DNA of 64,000 nucleotides from a bacterium (GTDB lineage: Bacteria; Patescibacteriota; Minisyncoccia; Phycocordibacterales; Zambryskibacteraceae): assembly GCA_030649135.1 (NCBI GenBank), contig JAUSGI010000002.1, forward strand, positions 6,294-70,293, given 5' to 3'. The notes under the pieces were generated by a model. It did not search any database. It worked only from the letters and a program-made list of their open reading frames with translations, and was not told the DNA's origin. The position numbers were made by a program, and so were the translations under genes. Shown here in pieces: positions 10,155 to 44,450 of this stretch. Numbering within the stretch: position 1 is the stretch's first letter; every line of letters begins with the position of its first letter.

Positions 10155-10787
10155 ATGGACAATTTTAAAAATACTCGCGCTGTCGTTGTGTACCTAAGTA
10201 AGTATATATCGGGCAAAACTCTTGACTATGGCGCTGGCTCTGCCAAATATAGAAACCTGATTGCTCCACAGACGAGCGAATACATAACCTTTGATATGGT
10301 TCCCGGAGAATACATTGATGTGGTAGGAGATGCCCTCAAACCCCCTTTTCCTGACAACTCTTTTGATACCGTCATCTCCACTCAAATGCTGGAACATGTA
10401 GAAAAGCCATGGGTAGTGGCAAGCGAAATAAGACGCATCCTGAAGCCAGGTGGTATCTGTATACTCACAGCGCCCTTTTGGGTCCCTTATCACGCTGACC
10501 CTCACGACTATTTTCGCTACACCAAAGAAGGATTAGAAAGTTTATTTAAAAATGAGGGCTTTGAAATAGAGGTGAGCGGTAATTACGGAAAACCCCCATC
10601 TGTCCTGGGAGAAATGATTCATTTCTCCTTTTTTAGCCCTTATGATGTTGTCTCTCAAAGAAAAGCAAGATGGCGCTCAAGAATAATGCGTTTCATACAA
10701 TCGTTAACCTATAAGCTAGACACTCTCTCTAAAAACAAGGTTGTTTACGCTAACGCTTATGTGGTCGCAAGAAAATCCTCCAGTTGA
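10155..10787 (+). CDS. Class I SAM-dependent methyltransferase
   Basis: Motif I LDYGAGSAKY and Methyltransf_11 features FDTVISTQMLEHV and LKPGGICIL. Confidence 0.75.
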   Translation: MDNFKNTRAVVVYLSKYISGKTLDYGAGSAKYRNLIAPQTSEYITFDMVPGEYIDVVGDALKPPFPDNSFDTVISTQMLEHVEKPWVVASEIRRILKPGGICILTAPFWVPYHADPHDYFRYTKEGLESLFKNEGFEIEVSGNYGKPPSVLGEMIHFSFFSPYDVVSQRKARWRSRIMRFIQSLTYKLDTLSKNKVVYANAYVVARKSSS

Positions 10788-12463
10788 TCCACGACCCATT
10801 TACTCCCATTCTGATATGGGTCGCCAAAGTATCGTTCTCGCAATTCTTTGATGTTATCCTCTGATATTTGGGGAATATTTTTTATTCTTTTAATAAGCTC
10901 ACCAGGATTCTCAGCAAATAACGGACTCCCTGTCCCATAATCCTTCATGTTAAAGCAATCTCCCCATTTATCTGTCTTAAAGAAAATAGGTATCTTAAAC
11001 TCTAATAAGGCCTCCAACACTGCTGTACTATGAGAACCAACAGCGGCATCACATTCTTTGACGGCGTCAGTGATACTACCCCTCAAGATTTTGAGATTTT
11101 TGTCTTCTAATATTTCTGGTTCATTGGCTAAAAGCCACTCTTCAAATCCATCTTTGGTTGGCCTAAACTTTATGCTCAATTCAATTTCACGATTATTTAA
11201 TAATTCATTTAGGTAAGGCAATACCTCATAAGGCGCGGCCAATTGTTCCGAAATAAAAAGTACTTTAACGGGCCCTTGGTTGCTTTGCCCTGGGTTTGTC
11301 GAAGGGTTGGTTTGCTTTTCTAATGGCCTCATCGGACCTGATACGTAGAGCTGTTCCGGAAGATAGGCTCTGCTATTTGTAATATAATATTCCTTCCACC
11401 AGTCGCTCCAGAGACCATATTTATCGGTGGTTAAAATTTTTTCTCCATCAAATCCAGGCATAAAATCATACACATTATAATATTTAGAAGGGGCACCATG
11501 CAGAAGGCCAACAGTCGGAACATTGTTCAATTTACACCCTAGGACAGCATGGAAATTTCGTTCCAAGGCCACCGGGAAAAACGCCGACTTCACGCCAATG
11601 ACCCGCAAAATCCATTTCATAATCCGGATAGCCCACATATCATTATAGACATTAAGAAGATGATGGGTGGCCACCAAAATCTTAAACTGTTTTTGTGGAT
11701 CTCTTTCTATTTGCTTACTGATCTGATGACGGCTCCCCAAGATGAAGCTTAGGAACTTACCAACGAAAGCCACCGCTTCTGAGTAAATGACTGGACGCCC
11801 CCTGGTAAGAAAATGCTCTAAAATTGTTTTCCCAGACTCTAGACTTCTAATGAATTCAACAAAGGGGAGATTCCGGTCACGCAATTCCCTGTAGACAAAT
11901 TCCATTCTAAAATCGTAGTCTTTAGTCTTTTCGAATTTATCGCCGGTAAAAACCAGTATTCGTCGTCTTTGAAATATAAGAAATGGCAGAGACAAGAGGG
12001 TCAGAATTATTTGAAGAAGAATGCCAAGAGGTAGAATAGCTAGACTTTTAAAACCAGGTTTATTGAGCACGCTCATCTCACATCCATAAGCAGATAGATA
12101 GTGGGCAAAAAGACTTTTATATGGGGGGTTGTAAAAATACACCTGCCGAAAATCCCCTAAATACGAAAGAAGTTTTTTATATTGTGTGTATGGAAGACAA
12201 AAGTAGGTAGAGAGACTATTGTAATGTATCCACCATAATTCATAGCCCTCGTAAATAAAAGATTTGGCGATGCGCGTCCCGTCTGGAAACTTGAGATACG
12301 AAAGCTCTTTGGCAAACTGACTAGCTTCATAAATACTTCCGGGTCCAATAAATTTATTGAGCTCTTCACCAGAAAGCACCATATCGTAGGAACGTAGATC
12401 CCCTTTCGGCATCTCTTCGCCAAAAACTACTAAAATTGATTTATTTTTCATTTCTATAACCAT
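10757..12463 (-). CDS. Putative polysaccharide biosynthesis protein (capsule/teichoic-type glycosyl- or glycerophospho-transferase-like)
   Basis: The start is reassigned to ATG 12463 (MVIEMKNKSILVVFG). The track's longer N-terminus runs through a GC-rich hairpin terminator and the neighbouring gene. The C-terminal region AVGSHSTAVLEALLEFKIPIFF resembles PF04464/PF05159-type transferases. Confidence 0.45.
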   Translation of the reverse strand: MVIEMKNKSILVVFGEEMPKGDLRSYDMVLSGEELNKFIGPGSIYEASQFAKELSYLKFPDGTRIAKSFIYEGYELWWIHYNSLSTYFCLPYTQYKKLLSYLGDFRQVYFYNPPYKSLFAHYLSAYGCEMSVLNKPGFKSLAILPLGILLQIILTLLSLPFLIFQRRRILVFTGDKFEKTKDYDFRMEFVYRELRDRNLPFVEFIRSLESGKTILEHFLTRGRPVIYSEAVAFVGKFLSFILGSRHQISKQIERDPQKQFKILVATHHLLNVYNDMWAIRIMKWILRVIGVKSAFFPVALERNFHAVLGCKLNNVPTVGLLHGAPSKYYNVYDFMPGFDGEKILTTDKYGLWSDWWKEYYITNSRAYLPEQLYVSGPMRPLEKQTNPSTNPGQSNQGPVKVLFISEQLAAPYEVLPYLNELLNNREIELSIKFRPTKDGFEEWLLANEPEILEDKNLKILRGSITDAVKECDAAVGSHSTAVLEALLEFKIPIFFKTDKWGDCFNMKDYGTGSPLFAENPGELIKRIKNIPQISEDNIKELRERYFGDPYQNGSKWVVDQLEDFLATT

Positions 12464-12477
12464 ATCATATAGGAAAA

Positions 12478-12507
12478 GGGCCGGCCGCGATGTACTGCGG
12501 CCGGCCC
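12478..12507 (-). terminator. Perfect 11-bp GC hairpin GGGCCGGCCGC-gatgtact-GCGGCCGGCCC
   Basis: Lies immediately downstream (minus strand) of the stop of the GC-rich 144-aa ORF and is followed by TTTTCC. Confidence 0.6.
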
Positions 12508-12515
12508 AGGTTAGA

Positions 12516-12950
12516 TCAGGCGTCCGGGTCGATGGCGTTGGGGCGGTATTCGAACCGCCAGATGGTGACGAGGTTGTCGTCACCGAACGGCTTGTTGTAG
12601 ATGCCCGCCAGGTGATTCTTGACCTCCTCCTGGCTCGTGATGTCCGGGGACATACCACGGAGGTCCTCCGCCGTCAGCTCGCTGATCTTCTTCACCAGAT
12701 ACTCGGTGACCTCGACGTTGGTCCCGTCATCTGGGAAGAACTTGGCCGCCACGCCTCGGGCCTGGTCGCCAGGCACCTCGATGTAGCGCACGAGGATATT
12801 GGTGAACCGCGGGATGCCGGTGGGCTTGGTCGGGTCGGAGCGATCACCGGGTCTCACGACCGAGGTGATCGTCTGATCTTTGAAGCCCTGCATGTGCTCC
12901 ACTCGGACCCAGAGTCCGGGCTGGCCATACTCCACGTTTCGATCCAGCAT
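12516..12950 (-). CDS. Hypothetical protein, 144 aa, conspicuously GC-rich orphan
   Basis: Self-contained cassette: consensus promoter, SD AAGGGGGAGGG, ORF, GC hairpin terminator. About 60% GC against roughly 35-40% in the flanks. No family recognised. Confidence 0.6.
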   Translation of the reverse strand: MLDRNVEYGQPGLWVRVEHMQGFKDQTITSVVRPGDRSDPTKPTGIPRFTNILVRYIEVPGDQARGVAAKFFPDDGTNVEVTEYLVKKISELTAEDLRGMSPDITSQEEVKNHLAGIYNKPFGDDNLVTIWRFEYRPNAIDPDA

Positions 12951-12997
12951 GAAATCCCTCCCCCTTGCTTGATTTGTAACAATTTTACTCCTCGCGT

Positions 12998-13026
12998 ATT
13001 ATAGCAAACTATGTAGAATGTGTCAA
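12998..13026 (-). promoter_or_regulatory. Consensus sigma70-type promoter TTGACA-N17-TATAAT for the 144-aa gene
   Basis: Minus strand reads TTGACAcattctacatagtttgcTATAAT. The -35 box overlaps the TGA stop of the upstream epimerase gene. Confidence 0.5.
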
Positions 13027-13937
13027 TAGTCTGGAGAATGCTTCATATGCTCATCGTATCCTTCAGGATTAATCCTCTGGTGAGTCTCATTGATTAAATC
13101 AAGTAAACCTTGTCCGATATCAGTCGATAAATTAGGTATGAGCTTCCTAGCTAGACGAGGTTGGAAGCTGTAACCTGTCATTTGATAGTGCCCGAGATCT
13201 CCTTTGTTTAAAAATTCAATTTCCACTTCATGGTTGAGCATCTCTTTAATCATCATTAGAAGGTCGCGAGACTTGAGTGTCTGGTGACCAGTAATAAGTA
13301 TGTGTTGGTTTTCAAATTCTGGTTTGAGTATTTCCACACTTGATCGGGCCGCATCTCTGACGTGAATATGCTCGCGCACTTCTTCCCCTGTTCCGGGATA
13401 AGAGATCTTTTTTTCTTTGATTGCCTGATTGATAAACTTATTGATACTTGAAAGATGATTGGATCGAGCCGGACCATAGAGTGAACCGTAACGCAAAATG
13501 GTGAAAGGCAAGCCATATTGGCGCTGATATGTCTCCGTAATCTTTTCACTGGCTAATTTAGAGTCGCTATAGAAGGCACCGAAACGGCTGTAGGCGTAAA
13601 CGGAACTAGCATAGACAAAGCGCTTAGCTCCAGCCTTACGAGCTGCTTCAAGGGCATAGGTATTACCTAAAATATTAACTTTAACGACATCAATTGGATT
13701 ATTTTTAGCCACATCAATATCCGCTACGGCAGCAAAGTTGTAAACAATATCGTACCCTTTGACAGCCTTTTCTACCGCCTTCTGGTCAGTGATATCACCT
13801 ACGATCATTTGTTGACCCGGCTTTAAGTATTCCGATTTGGTACGGCCGAATATAACCACGTCGTGCCCTGCTTCAGTCAAAGCATCAGCCACATAACTAC
13901 CGAGAAATCCCCCACCACCAAAGACAATGATTTTCAT
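13023..13937 (-). CDS. NAD-dependent nucleotide-sugar epimerase/dehydratase (extended SDR)
   Basis: Rossmann N-terminus GGGGFLGSYV and the catalytic YxxxK region; whole-protein architecture typical of UDP-sugar 4-epimerases. Confidence 0.8.
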   Translation of the reverse strand: MKIIVFGGGGFLGSYVADALTEAGHDVVIFGRTKSEYLKPGQQMIVGDITDQKAVEKAVKGYDIVYNFAAVADIDVAKNNPIDVVKVNILGNTYALEAARKAGAKRFVYASSVYAYSRFGAFYSDSKLASEKITETYQRQYGLPFTILRYGSLYGPARSNHLSSINKFINQAIKEKKISYPGTGEEVREHIHVRDAARSSVEILKPEFENQHILITGHQTLKSRDLLMMIKEMLNHEVEIEFLNKGDLGHYQMTGYSFQPRLARKLIPNLSTDIGQGLLDLINETHQRINPEGYDEHMKHSPDY

Positions 13938-13941
13938 CTCG

Positions 13942-14691
13942 TTATTGATAGGTTTTAAATAAGGGATCGTTTCTCATAATTTCTCGCACCCTGATCAAGT
14001 CAGCCTCGGTATCGACATTGAAAGTTTCTTGCTCTGTTTCTACTACCTTAACTTTAGCACCATGTTCAAGAAAGCGTAAGAGATCAATCGATTCTATTGT
14101 TTCAAGTGGTGCCATTCCCCAATTGGTAAAGTCCCGGAGGCTTTCTCGTCGTATGGGATAGACACAGACCATTTTGTAGTGAGAAATCGGCTCTTTGGTC
14201 TTTGCCTTGGAGGGAATGGGTTCGCGCGAATAGAACAATGCATCCCCCTTACCATCTCGAACCACCTTAACTCGATTGCGATCTTCAACTTCAGAAAGGT
14301 CAGTAATTTTTTGCACTAATGTTCCGCATGCATAAGAATCATCTTCAGCCAGTGGCTTGGTAATAGCATCAATCATTTCTGGATAAATCAAGGGCTCATC
14401 GCCTTGAACATTGACAACGAGATCAGCCAAAATCGTTTCATTAGCTTCAGCCAGACGATCCATGGCCATGGTGTGGTCAGGTCGAGTCATAATGGCTTTA
14501 CCACCAAATTTCTCCACTACATCAAATATTTCTTTGTTGGGAGTGGCTACCCAAACTTCATCTAGGAGTTTAGACATCTTGGTGCGAAGCCAGACGTGTT
14601 CAACCATCGTCTTGCCTAAAATATCCACCAAGGGCTTACCTGGGAAGCGAGATGACTCCATCCGAGCTGGAATAATGGCTACAATCTTCAT
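13942..14691 (-). CDS. KdsB-family cytidylyltransferase (CMP-Kdo synthetase-like / CMP-keto-deoxy sugar synthetase)
   Basis: Carries IIPARMESSRFPGKPL and NVQGDEPLI, the hallmark motifs of 3-deoxy-manno-octulosonate cytidylyltransferases. Confidence 0.75.
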   Translation of the reverse strand: MKIVAIIPARMESSRFPGKPLVDILGKTMVEHVWLRTKMSKLLDEVWVATPNKEIFDVVEKFGGKAIMTRPDHTMAMDRLAEANETILADLVVNVQGDEPLIYPEMIDAITKPLAEDDSYACGTLVQKITDLSEVEDRNRVKVVRDGKGDALFYSREPIPSKAKTKEPISHYKMVCVYPIRRESLRDFTNWGMAPLETIESIDLLRFLEHGAKVKVVETEQETFNVDTEADLIRVREIMRNDPLFKTYQ

Positions 14692-19126: not shown

Positions 19127-19672
19127 TTACTTGGTTAACCTAAATACCCCTTCGTCCATAACAAAATCATATCCGTGGGAGCGGGCGGACCTTTTTATTT
19201 CCCTTATGTCACGCACAGTAAAGTGTCGAGCATCATCGATGAGGACATCGTGTCCTTTAACAGGGTGAGAGAATACTGCATCTAACTCTTGCCGGACAGG
19301 CGAATTATCAAGATTGAAGGGAGAACCGTGAGCATCTAGCCAAATCAAAGCCGGCTCTTTGACTTCTGCCATTACCTCGTATATTTTCTCCCCGCTATCT
19401 CCGTGATACAGATGGATGTTCCTTGCACTGGCAAACATGGCCACTGCCTGATTATAGAGTGTCGGGTCAAGTTCTATTGAATAAATCTCCCTAAAACTAT
19501 CTTTCATGGCAGCAATAGTGTCGCCTCGGTTCGTACCAGTTTCTACAAAGATATTTTTCTTCCCTTTATACGATAGCAATATTTCAACTTTCCGCTCCCC
19601 TGTTATTTTGAGGCCTTTCGCAGGATTTCTAAGACCTACAAATACAAGAATTTTTTTAATATAGTGTTTCAT
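19127..19672 (-). CDS. SAM-dependent methyltransferase (FkbM/TylF-like)
   Basis: The ORF track begins at a TTG three codons upstream; ATG at 19672 (MKHYIKK) is preferred. Shows VETGTNRGDT and LIWLDAHG. Confidence 0.5.
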   Translation of the reverse strand: MKHYIKKILVFVGLRNPAKGLKITGERKVEILLSYKGKKNIFVETGTNRGDTIAAMKDSFREIYSIELDPTLYNQAVAMFASARNIHLYHGDSGEKIYEVMAEVKEPALIWLDAHGSPFNLDNSPVRQELDAVFSHPVKGHDVLIDDARHFTVRDIREIKRSARSHGYDFVMDEGVFRLTK

Positions 19673-19686
19673 ATATAGCAATAATA
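19650..19686. repeat. Direct repeat copy 1 (about 32 bp) covering the 5-prime UTR and first codons of a methyltransferase gene
   Basis: TTTTAATATAGTGTTTCATATATAGCAATAA recurs at 20535-20571. Both downstream genes start MKHYIKK. Confidence 0.7.
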
Positions 19687-20571: not shown

Positions 20572-21770
20572 TTAGCTATTTGAACATTTAAATTGAAGTT
20601 TGTTTTGATTCTATCTAAACCAGCTTTACCAAATCTTTCTGCTTTTTCAGGATGGTTGATTAAATCAAGCATTTTTTCTGCCACTTCTTTTGTATGGAAA
20701 GGATTAACCACATATCCAGTGATACCATCCTCAATGATTTCCGGCGCTCCCCCATAGCAAGTGCCCACCACCGGTTTGGCGCAGGCCATCGCCTCAAGCA
20801 CGATTCTGGGGAAAGAATCGAAGATAATTGATGGCACCAAGACAAGGTCGGCACAGGCATAAGCAGATTTTATCTCGTCCCTTTCTATCCAACCAGTAAA
20901 AATTAGTCTACCCCCTATTCCCAACTTGTCTGCCGCCTCTTTCATGCTGGCGGCATACCCCTCCATTTTACCCGCAACCAGGAGTACTACATTATCTACT
21001 TCCTTCTCAAGCTCTGCCATCACTTCAAGTGCCTTTCCCCCGCCTTTAGCCTCACTTAACCGCCCACCGAACAATATTACTTTTTTATTTGTTAGATTAT
21101 ACTTTTCTCTAAATTGGGCTACTTCTTCTCCACTCGTGCGCCACAAATTCACATCAGCTCCGAAATACATCACTTCTACATTTACAATACCATTTTGTTC
21201 AAGAGCTTTTTTTAAGGCACCGCTTACTGCAAAAATTTTGTCCGCGTGTTTGAGATACTTTCTAATGAATAAATTACGAAGGGGATTCCACCTTTTTCTC
21301 GCCTGTTTCAGATGGTCAAACCAAGTTGTATGGGCATCAAAATTTTCCAAATACCGCTTGGTGTGTAGTTTCCCATAATTAAAAGACATGACATCATGAG
21401 CAGTCAAAACCACTACTTTGCTAAACCGCTTCGCAATCACCAGAGTATGGTAAGAGAGGTAGAAGTGAATGTTGTGGGCATGCACTACATCCGGCTTAAT
21501 GTTCTTAAGAAGTTTTGCCACTTGGCGTACAACTGGAGGATTGTACAGACCAAGATAGGAACGCCATCTGGTGGAATAATTGCTGGTAATTTTCCAAACT
21601 TTTATACCATGGTATTCCGATACTCCCGCCTCATCTCTATTTCTACACGTAGTGATCACATAAATCTCGTGACCCATCCTTTTCATGGCGATGGCAAAAT
21701 CATATGCGACAATCCCCGCCCCCCCAAAGCTCTGTGGCGGAAAATCGTCTGAAAGAAAGACTATTCTCAT
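20541..21770 (-). CDS. Glycosyltransferase family 4 (GT-B, Glycos_transf_1)
   Basis: N-terminal Glyco_trans_4 region FPPQSFGGAGIV and the C-terminal EX7E-type region FPRIVLEAMACAKPVV. Confidence 0.8.
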   Translation of the reverse strand: MRIVFLSDDFPPQSFGGAGIVAYDFAIAMKRMGHEIYVITTCRNRDEAGVSEYHGIKVWKITSNYSTRWRSYLGLYNPPVVRQVAKLLKNIKPDVVHAHNIHFYLSYHTLVIAKRFSKVVVLTAHDVMSFNYGKLHTKRYLENFDAHTTWFDHLKQARKRWNPLRNLFIRKYLKHADKIFAVSGALKKALEQNGIVNVEVMYFGADVNLWRTSGEEVAQFREKYNLTNKKVILFGGRLSEAKGGGKALEVMAELEKEVDNVVLLVAGKMEGYAASMKEAADKLGIGGRLIFTGWIERDEIKSAYACADLVLVPSIIFDSFPRIVLEAMACAKPVVGTCYGGAPEIIEDGITGYVVNPFHTKEVAEKMLDLINHPEKAERFGKAGLDRIKTNFNLNVQIAKLIAIYETLY

Positions 21771-23515
21771 ATTTTACGGTAAATGGCTATATCATCGAAT
21801 TCGGCCACTTTAGTTAGGAATTTGTATTTATCCAAATTCCAGAGAGGGTCACTCTTTTTATCCCAAACAAGATACGCCACTTCGTACTTAGTCCAGAGAT
21901 TCTTTAACCATTCCGCCGCGGGTAGAGAAAGCGTTTTTTTATAGGAAAGAGCAATTTCTCTGATTTTCTCATCGGGAAACGCCTCATGTGAACCAAAAAG
22001 CTCCCGATAATGAATCCCGTAAGCCTCAAAAGAAACTTTCTCGCGATCCTTGAGAAACGCATCTTCTACTTCTTTACTGTCCACACCAGCAAGCCTATAA
22101 AACGAAAACATGGTATTAAGCTGACGCGCATAGGTAGCGGATAGGGAGGCAAATGAAGTTGACCGATGGTAAAAAACATTCAGAGGAGTGTAGATAACAG
22201 TTATATGAGAAATCTCGTCATTGGCAAAGACAACAGACTCCTTCTCTGCATTCAGATTGAGCCATTTCATAACCGGCCCATATCTCTGACGCCCAATGAG
22301 AACCGTGCCCCCATCACCCATATCATGAGAATAGGAGTAAGCCTGGACATAAATACCTGTCGTGACACTTGTCACGATAATGAGAACGGCCAAAGCCTTC
22401 TTGTAGAAATCCAGCTTCCAACGAGCAAGCAGGTAGAAAATCACTATGAGCATAAAAATAATAGCCATCGGTTTGTGGAAAAACCAGTGGTAATGCGGCG
22501 CTTCAAGCACTTTGCCCGTGAAAAGCTGTTGATTCAGTGTGACAAAAGGGGTTAAGAGTAAAGCTAAACCAAAAAAATACTTTTCCCTATCCCCTTTCGG
22601 GAAACCTAAGAAAAAAATGATTAGGGCAACAATCACTCCCCAACCAACGAACAAGGGCGCATGGGTTAGAAGTACACCAATATTTGAACTAACTTCATTG
22701 TATGCGGGAAATTGGGTAACTCGGTATAGATTGATAACATAAGGGGTGGCCACCAAAAATGCGCCTAAAAATACGCTGGATATTCTTACCGCCTCTCGCC
22801 ATTTTTTCTGGATGAGAAGCAGCAAAACCAAAACGCCGCCAAAAGAATATAGGTACGTCCATGTGTAAAAATAGTTATAAAAATTCAAACCTAAGAGAAT
22901 GGCGCTAATAACACCGTACTGCCACTTCCGTTTGCGATAGAACAACCAAAAGGCGATTAGGAAGGCAAAAAGAAAAAAGTAGATCATAGCGGGATTCACC
23001 GGCTTGGAGAGCCGTAAAAAATTTTCGTAACTAACGCCGTGGAAGAATAACTGAACAAGGCCGGATTTGCTCAAAATAGAATCCGCCAGTAAATTTACTG
23101 CCGCACCGCAAAGGGCGACCAACTTATCTTTAGATAACAAAAAGACAAAGCCGTAAATTAAAAGGAAAACAATAAACGAGAGCACAAACCGAGATAACAA
23201 GAAGGTATTATTGATATCAAGGGAGAATATTTCCCCCATGTAGGCCACCACCATTGACCCCAGTGGCTGCAGGAGATACGGGTTATCCTTACCATCTTTT
23301 TGATAGATATTGCCGAAATTGGGGTGTCCATCTTGTACTTCCCGGGCTCGCGCCGACCAGGGAGAATCGGGCAACAACTCTATGCCTTGATAAATACCGT
23401 CATTTCTATGTTCAAGACGGAAATAAACCTGCGGTGAAGCCGCAATCACGGAGGTAAGTACAGCCAAAGCAATGGCCACCCGATGTTCACGGAGTATTTG
23501 TTTAAACTGATTCAT
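21767..23515 (-). CDS. Large polytopic membrane protein, putative GT-C-type glycosyltransferase (paralog of 34373..36079)
   Basis: About 12 TM helices plus a C-terminal soluble domain. Paralogy with the 34373 gene shows in the ARxxEVxDGxPxxGN and C-terminal ANDxIS blocks. A 4-nt overlap with the GT4 gene suggests co-translation. Confidence 0.45.
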   Translation of the reverse strand: MNQFKQILREHRVAIALAVLTSVIAASPQVYFRLEHRNDGIYQGIELLPDSPWSARAREVQDGHPNFGNIYQKDGKDNPYLLQPLGSMVVAYMGEIFSLDINNTFLLSRFVLSFIVFLLIYGFVFLLSKDKLVALCGAAVNLLADSILSKSGLVQLFFHGVSYENFLRLSKPVNPAMIYFFLFAFLIAFWLFYRKRKWQYGVISAILLGLNFYNYFYTWTYLYSFGGVLVLLLLIQKKWREAVRISSVFLGAFLVATPYVINLYRVTQFPAYNEVSSNIGVLLTHAPLFVGWGVIVALIIFFLGFPKGDREKYFFGLALLLTPFVTLNQQLFTGKVLEAPHYHWFFHKPMAIIFMLIVIFYLLARWKLDFYKKALAVLIIVTSVTTGIYVQAYSYSHDMGDGGTVLIGRQRYGPVMKWLNLNAEKESVVFANDEISHITVIYTPLNVFYHRSTSFASLSATYARQLNTMFSFYRLAGVDSKEVEDAFLKDREKVSFEAYGIHYRELFGSHEAFPDEKIREIALSYKKTLSLPAAEWLKNLWTKYEVAYLVWDKKSDPLWNLDKYKFLTKVAEFDDIAIYRKI

Positions 23516-33551: not shown

Positions 33552-34310
33552 ATGGGTGGAGTAGTGGTCGTCACAACTACGTTATACAACAGCATCGAGG
33601 AATTACGGTTTCGCCTGGCCTGCGATATGGTCAGGGTGGCCGTAGCCGATGGGTACAAAGTTGTCATCGGTGACGACTCGTCTATTATTCCCGAAGTGGC
33701 GGGAACTTTCCGTAGTCTCGGCGCGAATGTCTATCCCCGGCACCACAAGGGCGTGGGGTCAGGACGACGGGAAGCATTCTTCCACGCCTGGGAAGTGTCG
33801 GTGCGGGAGAACTGCTCCGCCATCGTCTGGACCGAACCTGAGAAGGTCGACCTGATCCGATGGGTCGGGAAAATTATCAGGCCCCTCGAGAATGGAGAGG
33901 CTGACATCGTCATTCCCGCACGCACGGAAAGGAGCTGGCAGACCTGGCCAGCATTCCAGCGGGAAAGCGAGACGCGGGCCAACGGTGTCTACAACGAGGT
34001 TTTGGGTACGAGAGGCTTCGACCCGATGTTTGGGCCGGTGGCTTTCACTCTCGACTTCGTGCCAGAATTTGCTTTCTGTAACCCGAAGGCGCTCGGAGTG
34101 CCGGACACCTACGTCCAGCATTACGCACCGATCATCGCCCGACATCATGGCGCCCGGGTCGTGTCGGTTGAGGTCGACATGACCTATCCGCCCGAGCAGC
34201 GAGCCGAGGAAGAAGGAGCGGCGAAAGAGACCATGCTCGAGAAACGCAAGTGGCAGCTCGGGAGCCTCTCTGAGGCCTACCGAACCTTAGCGAAAATTTC
34301 TCCCCGATGA
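33552..34310 (+). CDS. GT-A-fold (GT2/DPM1-like) glycosyltransferase-like protein, GC-rich
   Basis: Motifs VVIGDDSS, HHKGVGSGRREAFFHA and EADIVIPAR. Upstream lies TTGACT-N17-TATTAT plus an AAAGGA SD. The GC is clearly above its flanks. Confidence 0.45.
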   Translation: MGGVVVVTTTLYNSIEELRFRLACDMVRVAVADGYKVVIGDDSSIIPEVAGTFRSLGANVYPRHHKGVGSGRREAFFHAWEVSVRENCSAIVWTEPEKVDLIRWVGKIIRPLENGEADIVIPARTERSWQTWPAFQRESETRANGVYNEVLGTRGFDPMFGPVAFTLDFVPEFAFCNPKALGVPDTYVQHYAPIIARHHGARVVSVEVDMTYPPEQRAEEEGAAKETMLEKRKWQLGSLSEAYRTLAKISPR

Positions 34311-37098: not shown

Positions 37099-37127
37099 TT
37101 GACATTTGCATAGTATACAGATATAAT
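37099..37127 (+). promoter_or_regulatory. Perfect consensus sigma70-type promoter TTGACA-N17-TATAAT
   Basis: TTGACAtttgcatagtatacagaTATAAT, with a strong SD AAAAGGAGG 6 nt before the ATG at 37171. Confidence 0.55.
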
Positions 37128-37170: not shown

Positions 37171-37848
37171 ATGCCCACGATTCTCAAGGCCATTCTTTGT
37201 GATGTCGACGGAGTGCTCGTCGACACAGAGGGTCTGCATTTTCAGGCGTGGGATTGGATTTGTCGTGATATCGGAGGACAACCCCTCACTCAGGAAGAAC
37301 ACGCTACTCTCGTTGGGAAAGACGGGCCAGTCATCATGAGGGAACTTTCCCAGATGAAGGGGTTCGGCGGCGATCTGACCAAACTCAATGACCGTTGCCG
37401 AGAGAAGTACATCGAGTTACGGCAGACTGGGAACATCCCAGTCATCATGGAGAACGTTATGCTTCTTCGTGAGTTTGCCGAGCTGTACTCGGGCTTAAGG
37501 TTCGCGGCTGTTTCTTCCGATACTCACGACCATATTCAGCAGAACCTTCGGGTAGCTGGGCTTGAAAATTTCTTCGAACTGGCAGTTTCCGCCCATTCAG
37601 ACGGTTTGAAGAAGAAGCCCGCCCCCGACGTGTGGTTGGTGGCGATGAAGAGACTCGGAGTCGCTCCAGAAGAATGCCTAGCTTTCGAAGATTCACCAGC
37701 CGGAGTCGAATCTGTCACCAGCGCCGGGGTCAGGGTAGTGGCGCTACCCAGCCCCTCAACTGTATCCTGTAGCTTCCCGACCGCTCACACGGTCATCAAA
37801 CCAGGAGAAAGGAAAAACGCCAGAGAAATCCTTGCGCGCGTGATGTAG
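37171..37848 (+). CDS. HAD-IA hydrolase (beta-phosphoglucomutase/phosphatase-like), GC-rich
   Basis: DVDGVLVDTE (DxD), the motif II S/T and the K/DD motifs AFEDSPAG. Confidence 0.75.
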   Translation: MPTILKAILCDVDGVLVDTEGLHFQAWDWICRDIGGQPLTQEEHATLVGKDGPVIMRELSQMKGFGGDLTKLNDRCREKYIELRQTGNIPVIMENVMLLREFAELYSGLRFAAVSSDTHDHIQQNLRVAGLENFFELAVSAHSDGLKKKPAPDVWLVAMKRLGVAPEECLAFEDSPAGVESVTSAGVRVVALPSPSTVSCSFPTAHTVIKPGERKNAREILARVM

Positions 37849-38476: not shown

Positions 38477-39211
38477 ATGAACTTCGCTGAGTTCTGCTCA
38501 AAACAAAGCAGTATCTACGACGACATGCGGAAGCAGGAATGCGAGGAATCACGGATCACAGGGATGATGGAAGATCCCGGGCTCGTCACTAGGAGAGGCG
38601 GGTTTTTTCTCTCCCTCATTCACCCGCCTGAGTTTGCTCAGAAAGTAGCGGATTTCTCCGCCAAGGTTGGCGCCCTGATGCCAGCAATGGTTTACAGCAA
38701 CAAGGAGATACACACGACCGTCGGGTCAATTTCCACTTCGGTCATCCCACACTTCTATTTCGACGGAAACCGTGAGGACCATGCGCACCAGCTTTCCGTC
38801 ATCGAACGCGTGGCGGAGGAGACAGCAAAGAGAGTGAAAGCGGGGGTATGCAAAATTGGTTTTATTACGCCCTGCATCCTTCTGCCGAATCTCATCATCG
38901 CGCCGGGCGAAGCGAATCAGAGCGTCTTCGAAGTGACGACCGCGCTGACCGAATTCGGTACACAGATGGGGTTAGCAATGGCCCCATGCAAAAACGGCCA
39001 TGTGACAGTCAACCGCTTCACCGAAGCGAAGAGTGTAGGGGAAATATCCGATATTCTTAGGTTGATGGAGAAGGAGCCACCCTTTGGTGTCAGTCATCCG
39101 ATCGGGATCGCAGCGGGTTACACACTGCGTCACGAATCCGAACGAAATGTTACTGACCTTCGCGAAACACCCGGGCACTTCCACGGCACCAAGTTCTTCC
39201 GGTTCCAATAA
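38477..39211 (+). CDS. 2H phosphoesterase superfamily protein (LigT / cyclic phosphodiesterase-like), GC-rich
   Basis: Two H-x-T-x motifs, EIHTTVGS and NGHVTVNR, about 95 residues apart. Confidence 0.45.
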   Translation: MNFAEFCSKQSSIYDDMRKQECEESRITGMMEDPGLVTRRGGFFLSLIHPPEFAQKVADFSAKVGALMPAMVYSNKEIHTTVGSISTSVIPHFYFDGNREDHAHQLSVIERVAEETAKRVKAGVCKIGFITPCILLPNLIIAPGEANQSVFEVTTALTEFGTQMGLAMAPCKNGHVTVNRFTEAKSVGEISDILRLMEKEPPFGVSHPIGIAAGYTLRHESERNVTDLRETPGHFHGTKFFRFQ

Positions 39212-39248: not shown

Positions 39249-39971
39249 TTAATACGCGCTGATGCCATAGCCCGCAGCCTTGGCATCATCGTAGAACATT
39301 CGTACTGTTTCGAGCGAGTAGACGTCGTGGTCCTTGCCGACGAGCGACAACTTCTTGAGGATGTCGTTGGTTGCCGTGATGATGTGACAACCGACGGAGT
39401 CGGCCTGGAAGACATTGAGAAGCTCGCGTGGGCTGGCCCAGATGAGCTCAGCCTTCGGCCTCGCTCTCATGATCTCGACTGCCTGTTGCATTAACGGCAT
39501 CGGATCAACCCCGGTGTCAGCGATACGCCCTGCAAATACCGAGATGATGGCCGGTGTCCCTGGTGAGAGATGCTCGGTCACGGCCTTCACTTGTTCCAGA
39601 GTGAGTAACGCCGTGACGTTGAGCTTCACGCCAGCGTGCGACAGCCGCTCGATAAGCGGGCCACTCGACTCCCCTGTCGTGTTGGTGACTGGAATCTTGA
39701 CGTAGACGTTATCGCCCCACGAGGCGATGACGCGCGCTTGCGCCTCCATCTCATCGAAGTCGTCAGCGAAAACTTCGAACGACACCGGGCGATCCGAGAT
39801 AGTGGCGAGCACTTCCTTGGCAAACGCCTTGTAGTCAGTGACACCCGCCTTCCTCATCAGCGTAGGGTTGGTCGTGAACCCTTTAATGAGGGGGTTCGCG
39901 TACATCTCCTTCATGCCGGTGAGGTCCGCGCCGTCTGCGAATAACTTGATTTTGAGTTCTTGGATGTTCAT
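39249..39971 (-). CDS. tal: Transaldolase / fructose-6-phosphate aldolase (short Tal/FSA type), GC-rich
   Basis: TTNPTL and the Schiff-base lysine region VYVKIPVT. Its ATG overlaps the stop of the upstream kinase gene (ATGA). Confidence 0.85.
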   Translation of the reverse strand: MNIQELKIKLFADGADLTGMKEMYANPLIKGFTTNPTLMRKAGVTDYKAFAKEVLATISDRPVSFEVFADDFDEMEAQARVIASWGDNVYVKIPVTNTTGESSGPLIERLSHAGVKLNVTALLTLEQVKAVTEHLSPGTPAIISVFAGRIADTGVDPMPLMQQAVEIMRARPKAELIWASPRELLNVFQADSVGCHIITATNDILKKLSLVGKDHDVYSLETVRMFYDDAKAAGYGISAY

Positions 39972-42923: not shown

Positions 42924-44450
42924 TCAAGTAGTTTTTCCGCCCTCCCATCGCGTCCCGATTTCTATCTGGAGACGCTTTCTGCGGTACTCCTCCGAGTTGA
43001 CGCCAAACTCCGCCCATTGTTGCAGTTCCTCGATTCTTTCCGGAGGTACTGTCGTGTTCTTCATGACAGCATTCCTCCAGTTAAAAATATCGGGGTCGAA
43101 GTCTTGCACCAAGTACCCGTCACGCAGAGCCAAATCATGTAGGTTACTGCCGGGCAGAGGAACAGGGATCTTGAAAGAACAGTAATCTGCCCCCGCACCC
43201 ACCAGCCGCCGGCCGAGCTCGATCGAGGACATCATCTCTGCCTCGGTCTCGTCCGGGAAACCGATCATCATGTTGATGGGGCACGTGATACCGATATTCC
43301 TCGCAACCCTCACCAGCTCGACTACATCGAGTCGTTCATGGTTGAGCTTCCTCGTCGCATGCTGGTCAAGAATGCGCTGGGAAGCTGACTCCACCGGGAA
43401 AACGATCTGTGTGAGACCGCAGTCATAGAGGAGTTGCAGGAACTCTACATCGATGACCGGCTTGCCTCCGACGCTTCCCTTGAGAAAGTGCACCAGATTC
43501 ACTCCGTTCACGTCAGCGAGCTTGAGCCCCAGGCCTCGGACTTTCCCGAGAATCTTACGCATCCGCGGCTTGTTGGCCAGGAGCGTATCATCCTCGAGGT
43601 AGACTTTTGTGACACCAAGGCTCTTGAGTATTGAGAGCTCTTCGAACACCCGCGCTTCGGACTTGAAGCGCAACTTGGCGATCCCGCCACTCTCCTCTTC
43701 ATTTTCACTTTCTTTAGAGATGTGGCAGTACGAGCACTTGAAAATACATCCGCGGGATGTTTGCATGTTCCCGGAACGCTCTGGGTCTTTGAGAAAGGCC
43801 CTTCCGCCAGCTGCTTCGGCACGATCGTAATGCATCCAGGGAAGCTTGTGCCATGCCGGGATGGGCAGAGCATCAAGATTAGTGAGCGTATCCCCCACTT
43901 GAGGAAAACGTCTCACGATTCTCCCATTCTGCATGGTGACTGTTCCAGAGACGGCGAGACTTTCCCCCGCTTCCCAGGCTTGGATGACCTCGACGACCAC
44001 CCGCTCACCTTCGGTATTGCAAATGGCATCTACGCCGGCCGCGAGGAACCGTTTGTGAAGAGCTCGGGCGTTAACGCCACCGGCAATGACCAGGATTTCC
44101 GGAGATACTGCCTTGGCCGCCTTGACGACTTCAAGTGCCATCCTGTGCTGCGGAGTGAAAATGGAGCTAAGACCGACAACGTTGTAGCCACCACGAGCGA
44201 TGACCTCACTCATCCGATCGGTCGTCATGCCGATACGGGTGAGGCCGTTTTCCTGCATGACAAGCTTGTCGAAGGTGTCTTCAAGCTTGTCATCCGGCGT
44301 GCCGACATTGGCGTCGAGCAACTCCGACTCAATACCGGCTCGTTCGAGCGAGGCATCGAGATACAAGAGACCGAGCGAACCATCGACACGACGGGCTTCT
44401 CTCTTCGCCAACTGGGTAGGATGGTAAATGAGCAGAGCTTTTGCCTTCAC
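42924..44450 (-). CDS. B12-binding domain radical SAM enzyme (class B rSAM, methyltransferase-like), GC-rich
   Basis: N-terminal cobalamin-binding-like Rossmann region and the radical SAM cluster motif SRGCIFKCSYCH. GTG start preceded by SD AGGGGGG. Confidence 0.8.
   Translation of the reverse strand: MKAKALLIYHPTQLAKREARRVDGSLGLLYLDASLERAGIESELLDANVGTPDDKLEDTFDKLVMQENGLTRIGMTTDRMSEVIARGGYNVVGLSSIFTPQHRMALEVVKAAKAVSPEILVIAGGVNARALHKRFLAAGVDAICNTEGERVVVEVIQAWEAGESLAVSGTVTMQNGRIVRRFPQVGDTLTNLDALPIPAWHKLPWMHYDRAEAAGGRAFLKDPERSGNMQTSRGCIFKCSYCHISKESENEEESGGIAKLRFKSEARVFEELSILKSLGVTKVYLEDDTLLANKPRMRKILGKVRGLGLKLADVNGVNLVHFLKGSVGGKPVIDVEFLQLLYDCGLTQIVFPVESASQRILDQHATRKLNHERLDVVELVRVARNIGITCPINMMIGFPDETEAEMMSSIELGRRLVGAGADYCSFKIPVPLPGSNLHDLALRDGYLVQDFDPDIFNWRNAVMKNTTVPPERIEELQQWAEFGVNSEEYRRKRLQIEIGTRWEGGKTT

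What the first reader, a model, noticed from the sequence alone, without database searches (positions are those of the whole stretch)
12516..12950. Orphan 144-aa GC-rich protein carried on a complete promoter-SD-ORF-terminator cassette
I cannot assign this protein to any known family. It nevertheless has the cleanest expression signals in the window: TTGACA-N17-TATAAT, SD AAGGGGGAGGG, and a perfect 11-bp GC hairpin terminator. Its -35 box overlaps the stop codon of the upstream epimerase gene. The track-predicted N-terminal extension of the downstream gene runs antisense through its terminator and is therefore a spurious ORF. A self-contained single-gene island inside a glycan locus is typical of immunity, toxin or anti-phage singletons.
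Basis: partly seen in the sequence, partly recalled or inferred. Interest (0 to 1): 0.55.

Follow-up and report, generated by a model that had tools for sequence, protein, structure and literature searches.

The report
Strongly expressed ASCH-fold glycan-locus accessory gene
This small GC-rich gene is not a stray toxin or defence gene but belongs to a rare, unnamed protein family with an ASCH-type barrel fold that candidate-phyla-radiation (Patescibacteria) bacteria keep, with its own strong promoter and terminator, directly in front of a sugar-transferase gene in their surface-glycan loci.

Summary
The 144-aa ORF at 12516-12950 (minus strand) has 62% GC and GC3 0.85 in a ~42% GC locus. It has a 12/12 sigma-70 promoter with an extended -10, a strong SD and an 11-bp GC hairpin terminator.

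The defence, toxin or immunity reading does not hold. About 20 distinct homologous loci, all Patescibacteria where named, carry the gene in the same kind of glycan locus. Each locus with enough flank has a KdsB/CTP_transf_3 cytidylyltransferase. In most loci the gene lies directly upstream of a ~560-600-aa GT-B-fold protein.

The near-consensus promoter, SD, terminator and GC3 excess recur across the family, even though synonymous sites between loci are saturated. Distant relatives are fused or adjacent to shikimate-dehydrogenase-like, shikimate-kinase and dehydroquinate-synthase-like genes.

Most likely this is an abundant accessory protein that binds or processes an acidic sugar for the neighbouring transferase. 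The biochemical role is inferred, not shown.

The parts
12998..13026 (-). Sigma-70 promoter of the 144-aa gene. The -35 TTGACA is at 13026-13021, the spacer is 17 nt, TG is at 13006-13005 and the -10 TATAAT is at 13003-12998. The -35 overlaps the TGA stop of the epimerase gene.
   Evidence: One search gives 12/12 with TG. One search shows it is one of three 12/12 sites in 64 kb on both strands. Equivalent near-consensus promoters occur in homologous loci.
12951..12991 (-). Inferred 5' leader of about 41 nt, assuming a TSS about 7 nt after the -10. It contains the SD AAGGGGGAGGG at 12966-12956, 5 nt before the ATG.
   Evidence: Sequence. No Rfam family matches. Leaders of homologues are 35-69 nt long and are not conserved in sequence. 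The TSS is inferred, not measured.
12516..12950 (-). CDS of the 144-aa ASCH-fold protein, called 'X' in the report. GC is 0.618 and GC3 is 0.848.
12474..12507 (-). Intrinsic terminator: an 11-bp all-GC stem (12507-12497 / 12488-12478), an 8-nt loop and a short T-tract TTTT(CC). The short T-tract probably makes it leaky.
   Evidence: A hairpin follows the stop codon in all 22 homologous loci folded (20 distinct proteins), usually with a T-run; it is weak in L039. Leakiness is inferred.
10757..12451 (-). Partner gene: a 564-aa GT-B-fold protein, putatively a membrane-anchored transferase. Its ATG lies only about 22 nt after the T-tract of the X terminator.
   Evidence: Start supported. AF2 pLDDT 74.8. 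Foldseek hits are all GT-B glycosyltransferases or 2-epimerases. Faint hits to glycosyltransferase models BFO_1060 and DUF6716. Synteny with X in at least 17 loci.
13023..13937 (-). Upstream NAD-dependent epimerase/dehydratase gene. Its stop codon overlaps the -35 box.
13942..14691 (-). KdsB-type CMP-ulosonate cytidylyltransferase, which defines the locus type.
   Evidence: Pfam CTP_transf_3. NCBIfam KdsB models score above their cut-offs: NF009905 290.5 vs 255, TIGR00466 166 vs 155.2.

Best explanation
The ORF encodes a real cytoplasmic 144-aa protein of a rare, unnamed family with an ASCH/PUA-like beta-barrel fold.

In Patescibacteria it is an accessory component of surface-glycan loci built around a KdsB-type cytidylyltransferase. 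That enzyme activates an acidic, Kdo-like sugar as a CMP derivative. The gene is placed directly 5' of a ~560-600-aa GT-B-fold putative transferase.

It is transcribed as its own unit from a near-consensus extended -10 promoter, translated from a strong SD, and closed by a hairpin terminator. The protein should therefore be made in large excess over the enzymes around it. In the window, the partner gene starts about 22 nt after the T-tract of the terminator, so it is probably expressed by read-through.

**Inferred mechanism.** The protein uses the ASCH substrate pocket. Arg33, Asp103 and Tyr117 are retained, but the catalytic Lys and Thr/Glu are replaced by hydrophobic residues. With this pocket it binds or chemically processes a carboxylated sugar or its CMP derivative for the neighbouring transferase. 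It does not deacetylate N4-acetylcytidine.

**Shown:** gene reality, fold, loss of the ASCH catalytic dyad, conserved synteny, and conserved expression signals and GC3 excess.

**Inferred:** high abundance, read-through coupling, the ligand class, and functional coupling with the partner.
For: **Family and conservation**
- 16 clusters were found in 5.8 billion proteins at 46-55% identity. Invariant residues are R33, D36, R37, R55, D74, D96, D103, E108 and H113.
- A profile search found 128 representatives.

**Fold**
- The AF2 model has pLDDT 86.9.
- Foldseek top hits are all ASCH domains.

**Pocket**
- HHalign of a 63-sequence profile against YqfB is colinear over 90 columns (E 9.6e-4).
- It aligns R33 with Arg26, D103 with Glu74 and Y117 with Tyr89.
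- It places I28 at Lys21 and V31 at Thr24. The roles of these residues come from PMC6972931 and bioRxiv 10.64898/2026.02.27.708502.

**Context**
- A CTP_transf_3/KdsB-like gene is present in every locus with enough flank. X is followed by the GT-B partner on the same strand in at least 17 loci, while the gene upstream of X varies.
- The partner has a GT-B fold.
- A relative of the partner sits with KdsA-, KdsC- and KdsB-like genes in a Zambryskibacteria locus.

**Expression unit**
- Promoter, SD and terminator recur across the family.
- GC3 exceeds the neighbours' mean in 16 of 19 loci.

**Link to ulosonate or carbocycle chemistry**
- Distant relatives are fused to shikimate-dehydrogenase-like domains or to shikimate kinase.
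- Others are adjacent to an SDH-like gene.
- A close relative lies next to a DHQ-synthase-family gene.
Against: - No ligand, activity or interaction has been measured or modelled.
- X is absent from most loci that carry the partner family (more than 400 partner homologues against 16 X clusters). It is absent even from the closest partner relatives. The partner therefore does not need X.
- X evolves much faster than the sugar-nucleotide enzymes: 37-51% identity against 73-85% between the window and L007, L009, L017 and L020. This fits poorly with binding an invariant CMP-sugar.
- A terminator separates X from the partner.
- High expression is inferred only from consensus signals.
- The window locus shows no KdsA/NeuB-type synthase among the ORFs scanned, so the activated sugar is unknown.
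Confidence: 0.5

Rival explanations
1. A defence, toxin or immunity singleton: a self-contained gene that protects against phage or competitors and merely resides in a variable glycan locus.
Against: There is no PADLOC hit. There are no homologues in viral contigs, phages or plasmids. There is no nuclease or other effector domain and no small cognate partner ORF. All roughly 20 loci are glycan loci, and X holds a fixed position upstream of the same GT-B gene. Distant relatives are fused to metabolic enzymes.
Confidence: 0.05
2. A canonical ASCH function unrelated to the glycan. X would be a nucleoside or RNA N4-acetylcytidine deacetylase, or an RNA-binding protein, carried on a horizontally acquired 'moron-like' cassette that happens to land in a recombination-prone locus.
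For: The closest structures are YqfB and other ASCH proteins, many of which remove ac4C. The gene is an autonomous transcription unit, has GC3 0.85 and resembles a recent import. The window holds other GC-rich single-gene islands with their own promoters.
Against: The Lys and Thr/Glu that mutagenesis showed to be required in the ASCH deacetylases tested (YqfB, TthASCH, EOLA1, TRIP4) are Ile/Leu and Val/Trp/Tyr here. Pfam ASCH does not match even at E<=1. The position next to the GT-B partner is conserved across loci at synonymous saturation, which random landing would not produce.
Confidence: 0.12
3. An RNA- or transcription-level regulator of the glycan operon. An abundant ASCH-type RNA-binding protein would control read-through of its own terminator, and so the expression of the downstream transferase.
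For: ASCH was originally predicted to bind RNA, and some members act on tRNA. The terminator lies immediately before the partner gene, leaving no room for a promoter in the window.
Against: The leader and terminator sequences are not conserved between loci. In the ASCH study, tRNA binding came from an appended HTH domain, and the stand-alone ASCH domain tested showed no detectable binding. Fusions of relatives are to enzymes, not to nucleic-acid-binding domains. There is no Rfam element.
Confidence: 0.08
4. The GC-rich cassette is simply a recent horizontal replacement of the resident X allele by one from a GC-rich Patescibacterium. On this view the composition has no functional meaning.
For: The window allele has the most extreme GC3 (0.85). 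It is only 49-51% identical to the alleles in L007, L009 and L017, whose flanking enzymes are 74-85% identical to the window's. GC-rich Patescibacteria with the gene exist: L018 has gene GC3 0.79 against neighbour 0.80.
Against: The GC3 excess recurs in 16 of 19 loci and in several subclades. These include L007, L009 and L017, which share an X subclade (69-72% identity) although their synonymous sites are saturated. X GC3 stays at about 0.65-0.69 while host GC3 ranges from 0.29 to 0.49. No flanking repeats or integration scars were found.
Confidence: 0.25

Closest known systems
E. coli YqfB (N4-acetylcytidine amidohydrolase) and other stand-alone ASCH-domain proteins (PDB 9kyf, 3s9x, 1t62, 2z0t, 5guq)
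   Different: Sequence identity is about 10%, and Pfam ASCH does not match. The Lys and Thr/Glu of the GxKxx[E/T]xR octapeptide are replaced by hydrophobic residues. X has its own invariant set: D36, R37, R55, D74, D96, E108 and H113. It has about 40 extra residues. Its genomic context is glycan biosynthesis rather than nucleoside or RNA metabolism.
Auxiliary partner proteins of GT-B glycosyltransferases (e.g. EryCII with EryCIII, PDB 2yjn)
   Same: A separate protein is encoded next to a GT-B transferase and is needed for, or modulates, its activity. EryCIII is among the structural matches of the partner.
   Different: Known activators of this kind are P450-like proteins of about 400 aa, not ASCH barrels. 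No interaction between X and the partner has been shown. The comparison rests partly on my own knowledge of the EryCII/DesVIII class.
3-dehydroquinate dehydratase as a domain neighbour of shikimate dehydrogenase and shikimate kinase (plant DHQD-SDH; fungal AROM order SK-DHQD-SDH)
   Same: Distant members of the X family occupy the same architectural positions. They are N-terminal to an SDH-like domain, C-terminal to a shikimate kinase, or encoded beside an SDH-like gene. A close member lies beside a DHQ-synthase-family gene.
   Different: X shows no sequence similarity to type I or type II dehydroquinases, with no Pfam or NCBIfam hit. The SDH-like partners are divergent. No activity is known. 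The domain order of plant and fungal enzymes is cited from general knowledge, not from a tool result.
Kdo pathway and capsule-type CMP-Kdo glycan loci (KdsA/KdsC/KdsB plus a Kdo transferase)
   Same: The cytidylyltransferase passes the KdsB model cut-offs. A related locus has KdsA-, KdsC- and KdsB-like genes around the same GT-B family. Flippase, Wzy_C-like and deacetylase genes complete the locus.
   Different: No described Kdo pathway includes an ASCH-fold component. The window locus lacks a recognisable KdsA/NeuB among the ORFs scanned, and carries AP_endonuc_2, Zn-ADH, SDR and 2-hydroxyacid dehydrogenase genes instead. The hosts are Patescibacteria, which as far as is known have no outer membrane or LPS (my own knowledge).

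Membership tests
ASCH superfamily (PUA-like beta-barrel) | ASCH beta-barrel fold | tested here: met
ASCH superfamily (PUA-like beta-barrel) | Significant match to the Pfam ASCH sequence model | tested here: not met
   There are no Pfam hits at E<=1. A profile of 63 family members finds no ASCH chain in the PDB by sequence. Only a weak colinear HHalign match to YqfB was found (E 9.6e-4, probability 22%).
ASCH / YqfB-type N4-acetylcytidine amidohydrolases | Octapeptide GxKxx[E/T]xR with the catalytic Lys and Thr/Glu (Lys21 and Thr24 in YqfB) | tested here: not met
   Only the Arg is kept (R33, at least 90% conserved in 63 sequences). Lys21 aligns with I28 and Thr24 with V31.
ASCH / YqfB-type N4-acetylcytidine amidohydrolases | Hydrolysis of ac4C or N4-acylcytosines | not testable with these tools
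   This needs an enzyme assay.
Anti-phage defence system component | Match to a known defence protein model, or residence in defence islands, prophages or mobile elements | tested here: not met
   PADLOC gives 0 hits and PHROGs 0 hits. There are no relatives in IMG/VR contigs, phage records or plasmids. All contexts are glycan loci.
Toxin-antitoxin or immunity pair | Two small adjacent co-transcribed genes (toxin plus cognate antidote) | tested here: not met
   The flanking genes are a 304-aa epimerase and a 564-aa GT-B protein. No conserved small ORF accompanies X in other loci.
Integron-type or other mobile gene cassette | A recombination site (attC-like imperfect palindrome) or flanking direct or inverted repeats | tested here: not met
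   The only strong palindrome is a perfect GC hairpin followed by a T-run, which is a terminator. No flanking repeats longer than 13 nt were found.
CMP-ulosonate (Kdo-type) glycan locus, as an accessory member | Co-location with a KdsB/CTP_transf_3 cytidylyltransferase and a transferase in multiple genomes | tested here: met
   The KdsB models score above their cut-offs. CTP_transf_3 is present in all loci with enough flank. The GT-B partner lies downstream in at least 17 loci.
CMP-ulosonate (Kdo-type) glycan locus, as an accessory member | A biochemical role in making or transferring the sugar | not testable with these tools
   Inferred from synteny only.
3-dehydroquinate dehydratase (functional analogue) | Sequence or fold membership in the type I (AroD) or type II (AroQ) families | tested here: not met
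   There are no Pfam or NCBIfam hits. The fold is ASCH, not a TIM barrel or a flavodoxin-like fold.
3-dehydroquinate dehydratase (functional analogue) | Genomic or domain association with neighbouring shikimate-pathway steps | tested here: inconclusive
   Distant relatives are fused to SDH-like domains or to shikimate kinase, or lie adjacent to an SDH-like gene. One close relative lies beside a DHQ-synthase-family gene. The window gene itself has no such neighbour.

The most novel reading that the evidence does not exclude
The family could be a new class of small enzymes built on the ASCH barrel. These enzymes would act on 3-deoxy-2-ulosonate or dehydroquinate-type carboxylated rings. One example would be a third, non-homologous kind of dehydroquinate-dehydratase-like enzyme in the distant branch that is fused to shikimate dehydrogenase or kinase. 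In Patescibacteria this chemistry would have been recruited to tailor a CMP-activated Kdo-like or even carbocyclic sugar for the cell surface. In addition, the recurrent pairing of consensus promoters with GC3-enriched genes would reflect expression-linked selection on codon or mRNA composition in these reduced genomes, rather than horizontal transfer.
Probability: 0.15. Interest if true: 0.8.

Novelty: new variant of a known kind. Interest (0 to 1): 0.5.

Why it matters
Surface glycans are among the few features that can explain how ultra-small Patescibacteria attach to and live on their hosts, and their biosynthesis is almost entirely unannotated.

This work defines a compact, testable module: a KdsB-type activator, a highly expressed ASCH-fold protein, and a large unnamed GT-B family with more than 400 members.

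It shows that the ASCH barrel has been repurposed outside nucleoside and RNA deacetylation. So far ASCH proteins are known only as ac4C erasers and a ribonuclease.

The domain fusions of distant relatives to shikimate-pathway-type enzymes give a concrete biochemical lead.

Separately, near-consensus promoters are consistently linked to GC3-enriched genes in AT-rich genomes. If this is expression-driven, it would be a usable predictor of highly expressed genes in uncultivated lineages.

Tried and rejected
**Sequence and RNA libraries**
- Pfam, NCBIfam, PHROGs and PADLOC gave nothing for X. The only line was a meaningless 11-bit GarL match.
- Sequence searches of the PDB with two profiles returned only chance hits.
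- Rfam found nothing in 12300-13200.

**Mobility**
- No flanking direct or inverted repeats suggest a mobile cassette.
- No relatives appear in viral contigs, phages or plasmids.

**RNA structure as an explanation of GC richness**
- Dinucleotide-shuffle z-scores of the CDS are -2.6 (window) and -2.9 (L017), but close to 0 in most other loci. I rejected this as a general explanation.

**Antisense ORF**
- I treat the 130-aa ORF at 12612..13004 (+) as a by-product of high GC, because conservation follows the minus-strand frame.

**Paralogy and neighbour checks**
- The 564-aa partner and the 582-aa unknown at 21767..23515 are not related.
- The convergent ~350-aa unknown next to X in L003 and L011 is not related to the DHQ-synthase-like gene in L016 and has no PDB relative.

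- The AFDB50 fold library was not available.
- Model coordinates are not exposed, so I could not map conserved residues in 3D or co-fold X with the partner.
- No public source gives any family member a name other than 'hypothetical protein'.
- Literature searches for ASCH with shikimate, and for Patescibacteria with Kdo, found nothing relevant.
Full report
**1. The observation**

The ORF 12516..12950 lies on the minus strand and encodes 144 aa. It is 61.8% GC with GC3 0.848. The nine surrounding genes are 39-45% GC with GC3 0.32-0.43, and the change in composition coincides with the gene's boundaries.

Upstream lies TTGACA-N17-TATAAT (13026-12998). It matches 12/12 with an extended -10 TG. Its -35 box overlaps the TGA stop codon (13025-13023) of the epimerase gene 13023..13937.

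The SD AAGGGGGAGGG ends 5 nt before the ATG. A perfect 11-bp all-GC hairpin (12507-12478) followed by TTTTCC lies 8 nt after the stop codon.

In the whole 64-kb window, on both strands, only three 12/12 promoter matches exist, and this is the only one with TG.

The 633-aa 'extended' ORF of the downstream gene (10757..12658) is on the same strand, so it crosses the terminator in sense, not antisense. It is nevertheless spurious. Thirty-one homologues and the NCBI model begin at the ATG at 12451, giving 564 aa. Conversely, NCBI's model of the gene itself (125 aa, P0001) is too short, because the N-terminal MLDRxV..G.W.R segment is conserved in homologues.

**2. It is a real protein of a rare, unnamed family**

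Pfam, NCBIfam, PHROGs and PADLOC give no hit.

A search of 5.8 billion proteins finds only 16 clusters: the window protein itself plus 15 at 46-55% identity. None has a name or a Pfam domain. The alignment has 16 invariant positions, nine of them charged or histidine: R33, D36, R37, R55, D74, D96, D103, E108 and H113.

An exhaustive profile search of 1.84 billion representatives finds 128 proteins at E<=1e-3, most of them 120-150 aa. A second word-indexed search with a 63-sequence profile again returns only 'hypothetical protein'.

GTDB genomes that carry the gene are all Patescibacteria: Patescibacteria group, Ca. Saccharibacteria and Ca. Paceibacterota.

**3. Fold**

An AlphaFold2 model built on the family alignment is confident (pLDDT 86.9, pTM 0.79).

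- Foldseek against the PDB returns E. coli YqfB (ac4C amidohydrolase, 9kyf) first, followed only by ASCH-domain structures.

The protein is therefore an ASCH/PUA-like barrel.

The chemistry differs. Mutagenesis of YqfB and other ASCH proteins shows that the Lys and Thr/Glu of the octapeptide GxKxx[E/T]xR are essential for ac4C hydrolysis (PMC6972931; bioRxiv 10.64898/2026.02.27.708502). A colinear HHalign of the 63-sequence profile with YqfB (90 columns, E 9.6e-4, probability only 22%) gives these equivalences:

| YqfB residue | Family residue | Status |
|---|---|---|
| Arg26 | R33 | retained |
| Glu74 | D103 | acid retained |
| Tyr89 | Y117 | retained |
| His70 | D96 | changed |
| Lys21 | I28 | hydrophobic |
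| Thr24 | V31 | hydrophobic |

The family alignment has no conserved Lys in that strand in any register. The same pocket is probably used, but not for YqfB-type amidohydrolysis.

**4. Genomic context: a fixed slot, not a singleton island**

I recovered about 20 distinct homologous loci.

- All of those with usable flanks are glycan loci, with a CTP_transf_3 cytidylyltransferase, glycosyltransferases, a flippase and a Wzy_C-like protein.
- The window's cytidylyltransferase (13942..14691) exceeds the curated cut-offs of KdsB models: NF009905 290.5 vs 255, and TIGR00466 166 vs 155.2.
- In at least 17 loci, X is followed on the same strand by a homologue of the window's 564-aa protein. The two are directly adjacent in most loci and one gene apart in L001, L003/L004 and L011.
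- The gene upstream of X varies: epimerase, glucosamine-isomerase-like, NeuB, cyclase, inositol-phosphatase-like or RNase_T.
- L007, L009, L017 and L020 reproduce the window's order: AP_endonuc_2, Zn-ADH, SDR, KdsB-like, epimerase, (GlcN_iso-like), X, partner.

The partner has no Pfam family and only faint glycosyltransferase hits. Its AF2 model (pLDDT 74.8) matches only GT-B glycosyltransferases and GT-B-like 2-epimerases, including NeuC, CalG1-4, EryCIII and MurG (probability 1.0, TM 0.3-0.57). By eye it contains one long hydrophobic helix (about residues 138-160). I did not test this with a transmembrane predictor.

The partner family is large, with more than 400 hits that include Zambryskibacteria, Vogelbacteria and Pacebacteria. 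Its closest members lack X.

- L021/L022 have the window's overall layout, down to Wzy_C and SecA, but the 2-hydroxyacid dehydrogenase gene overlaps the partner directly.
- In L023/L024 (Zambryskibacteria) the partner sits among KdsC-like, KdsA-like and KdsB-like genes, which is a canonical Kdo pathway.

X is therefore an accessory, sporadically present gene tied to this GT-B family. It is not an obligatory subunit.

**5. The cassette architecture is a family trait**

I scanned each locus 160 nt upstream of the conserved start. The terminator figure below covers 22 loci, which include near-duplicates of the 20 distinct proteins.

| Promoter match | Loci |
|---|---|
| 12/12 | window, L001, L017, L018, L020, L033 |
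| 11/12 | L008, L016, L019 |
| 10/12 | L007, L038, L040 |
| 9/12 | L009, L031, L039 |

Most of these carry the extended-TG element, and the -10 lies 35-92 nt from the start codon. GGAGG-type SDs are the rule. A hairpin follows the stop codon in all 22 loci folded, with MFE -8 to -31 kcal/mol in 70 nt. It is usually followed by a T-run and is weak in L039.

Against the background rate in the same loci, the enrichment is extreme.

| Threshold | Loci with a site 40-130 nt upstream | Background P per window | Binomial P |
|---|---|---|---|
| >=10/12 | 12 of 20 | 0.012 | ~1e-18 |
| >=11/12 | 9 of 20 | 0.0013 | - |

Two caveats apply: the loci are related, and intergenic DNA is AT-rich.

Leader sequences are not conserved, and no Rfam family matches.

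In the window, the partner's ATG lies about 22 nt after the T-tract of the terminator, leaving no room for a promoter. Its transcription must therefore come from read-through or from within X. This is an inference.

**6. Composition**

X has a higher GC3 than the mean of its neighbours in 16 of 19 loci.

| Locus | X GC3 | Neighbour mean GC3 |
|---|---|---|
| window | .85 | .44 |
| L017 | .65 | .29 |
| L038 | .74 | .38 |
| L037 | .80 | .46 |
| L001 | .72 | .42 |
| L007 | .69 | .41 |
| L008 | .62 | .37 |
| L020 | .55 | .33 |

The exceptions are L003 and L011, where X has no promoter of its own, and L018, whose host is itself GC-rich.

Between the five loci that share the window's enzyme set, four-fold degenerate sites are at or near the identity expected from composition alone. 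Neutral sites have therefore been randomised. Even so, L007, L009 and L017 share an X subclade (69-72% identity) and keep GC3 at 0.65-0.69 against host values of 0.29-0.49. This argues against a passively decaying relic in those lineages.

The window's allele is a separate case. It has the most extreme composition, and it is only 49-51% identical to the alleles of L007, L009 and L017, although the flanking KdsB-like, epimerase and SDR genes are 74-85% identical to the window's. An allele replacement in the window lineage is plausible.

X and the partner (49-66% identity) both diverge much faster than the sugar-nucleotide enzymes.

RNA structure does not explain the GC richness in general. CDS folding z-scores are -2.6 and -2.9 in two loci but about 0 in most.

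The only three other 12/12 promoters in the 475 kb of strand sequence examined also precede GC-enriched genes:
- window 37171..37848, a HAD hydrolase;
- window 38477..39211, an unknown protein;
- the 348-aa unknown in L011.

The link between consensus promoters and GC enrichment may therefore be general in these genomes. I cannot decide between expression-linked selection and repeated import of promoter-bearing cassettes.

**7. Leads to function**

Distant family members (E 1e-7 to 1e-15 against the profile) show the following associations.

- Several are fused N-terminally to shikimate-dehydrogenase-like domains: P0048, P0054, P0063, P0074 and P0097. P0089 has the domain at the C-terminus instead.
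- P0053 is fused C-terminally to a shikimate kinase.
- P0053 follows an SDH-like gene (L013/L014).
- A stand-alone member overlaps the start of an SDH-like gene (L025/L026).
- In L016, a close relative (48% identity) is convergent with a DHQ-synthase-family gene, in a locus that also has CTP_transf_3.

Kdo8P and DAHP synthases belong to one Pfam family (PF00793, seen). Kdo-type acids and dehydroquinate/quinate share an alpha-hydroxy-carboxylate on a six-membered ring with an adjacent methylene (general chemistry, my own knowledge).

The simplest reading that unifies these contexts is that the family's pocket recognises this class of carboxylated ring compounds. The pocket has three near-invariant Arg residues plus Asp, His and Tyr. 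This is an inference, and no ligand has been tested.

**8. Verdict**

The defence, toxin or immunity idea is not supported:
- no PADLOC hit;
- no relatives in viral contigs, phages or plasmids;
- no cognate small ORF;
- a fixed position in glycan loci.

The best-supported description is an abundantly expressed ASCH-fold accessory protein of a GT-B transferase in KdsB-type glycan loci of Patescibacteria. It most likely binds or modifies the acidic sugar or its CMP derivative.

Membership in the ASCH fold superfamily is met structurally. Membership in the ac4C-amidohydrolase group is not met.

I rate this a new variant of a known kind and of moderate interest. It offers a concrete and cheap experimental path, plus an unexplained but reproducible compositional signature.

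Noticed in passing
window 33552-34310 (+), 37171-37848 (+), 38477-39211 (+), 39249-39971 (-), 42924-44450 (-): Five further gene-sized GC-rich islands (GC 0.53-0.59, GC3 0.60-0.75) lie in the same AT-rich region. They encode an unknown 252-aa protein, a HAD hydrolase, an unknown 244-aa protein, a transaldolase/FSA-like protein and a B12-binding radical SAM protein. The HAD and 244-aa genes are preceded by the window's only other 12/12 sigma-70 promoters, at 37099 and 38410. The 252-aa gene has a 10/12 promoter with TG.
   Followed up: partly
window 12516-12950 (-) and 10757-12658 (-): There are two start-codon problems. The public NCBI model of the 144-aa gene (P0001, 125 aa) starts 19 codons too late, judged by N-terminal conservation. 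The mechanical 633-aa ORF of the partner is an over-extension of the 564-aa gene that starts at 12451.
   Followed up: yes
window 10757-12451 (-); loci L021-L024: The 564-aa partner belongs to a large family (more than 400 hits) of unannotated GT-B-fold proteins in Patescibacteria with no Pfam model. In Zambryskibacteria it is embedded in a KdsA/KdsC/KdsB-like set, which makes it a candidate Kdo-type transferase family.
   Followed up: partly
P0048, P0054, P0063, P0074, P0089, P0097, P0053; loci L012-L014, L025-L026: Distant relatives of the 144-aa protein are fused to divergent shikimate-dehydrogenase-like domains or to a shikimate kinase, or are translationally coupled to an SDH-like gene. 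The L013 context includes prefoldin, which is typically archaeal. The arrangement mirrors the position of dehydroquinase in plant and fungal multi-domain enzymes.
   Followed up: partly
L016 8492-9553 (-): A 3-dehydroquinate-synthase-family (sugar phosphate cyclase) gene lies convergent with, and immediately next to, a close X homologue. The surrounding Patescibacteria glycan locus also has CTP_transf_3, an SDR and two 2-hydroxyacid dehydrogenases, and it lacks the GT-B partner.
   Followed up: no
L003 8521-9600 (-), L011 1305-2351 (-): A conserved unknown protein of about 350 aa (55% identity between the two loci, no Pfam or PDB relative) is convergent with X in the two loci where X lacks its own promoter. 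It is itself GC-enriched, and in L011 it is preceded by a 12/12 promoter with TG.
   Followed up: partly
window 21767-23515 (-) and 19127-19681 (-): Two more proteins in the glycan locus, of 582 aa and 184 aa, have no family assignment. The 582-aa protein is not a paralogue of the 564-aa partner. It is conserved in L019, L021 and L022.
   Followed up: no
window 6100-32000: The glycan super-locus extends over about 26 kb on one strand. It encodes Wzy_C-like, flippase, deacetylase, methyltransferase, GT4, GT2, LPG_synthase_TM-methyltransferase fusion, GFO/IDH/MocA, two DegT aminotransferases, a 4,6-dehydratase and a nucleotidyltransferase. It abuts SecA, as in the related loci L001 and L021. No KdsA/NeuB-type synthase was seen among the ORFs scanned, so the sugar activated by the KdsB-like enzyme is unclear.
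   Followed up: partly
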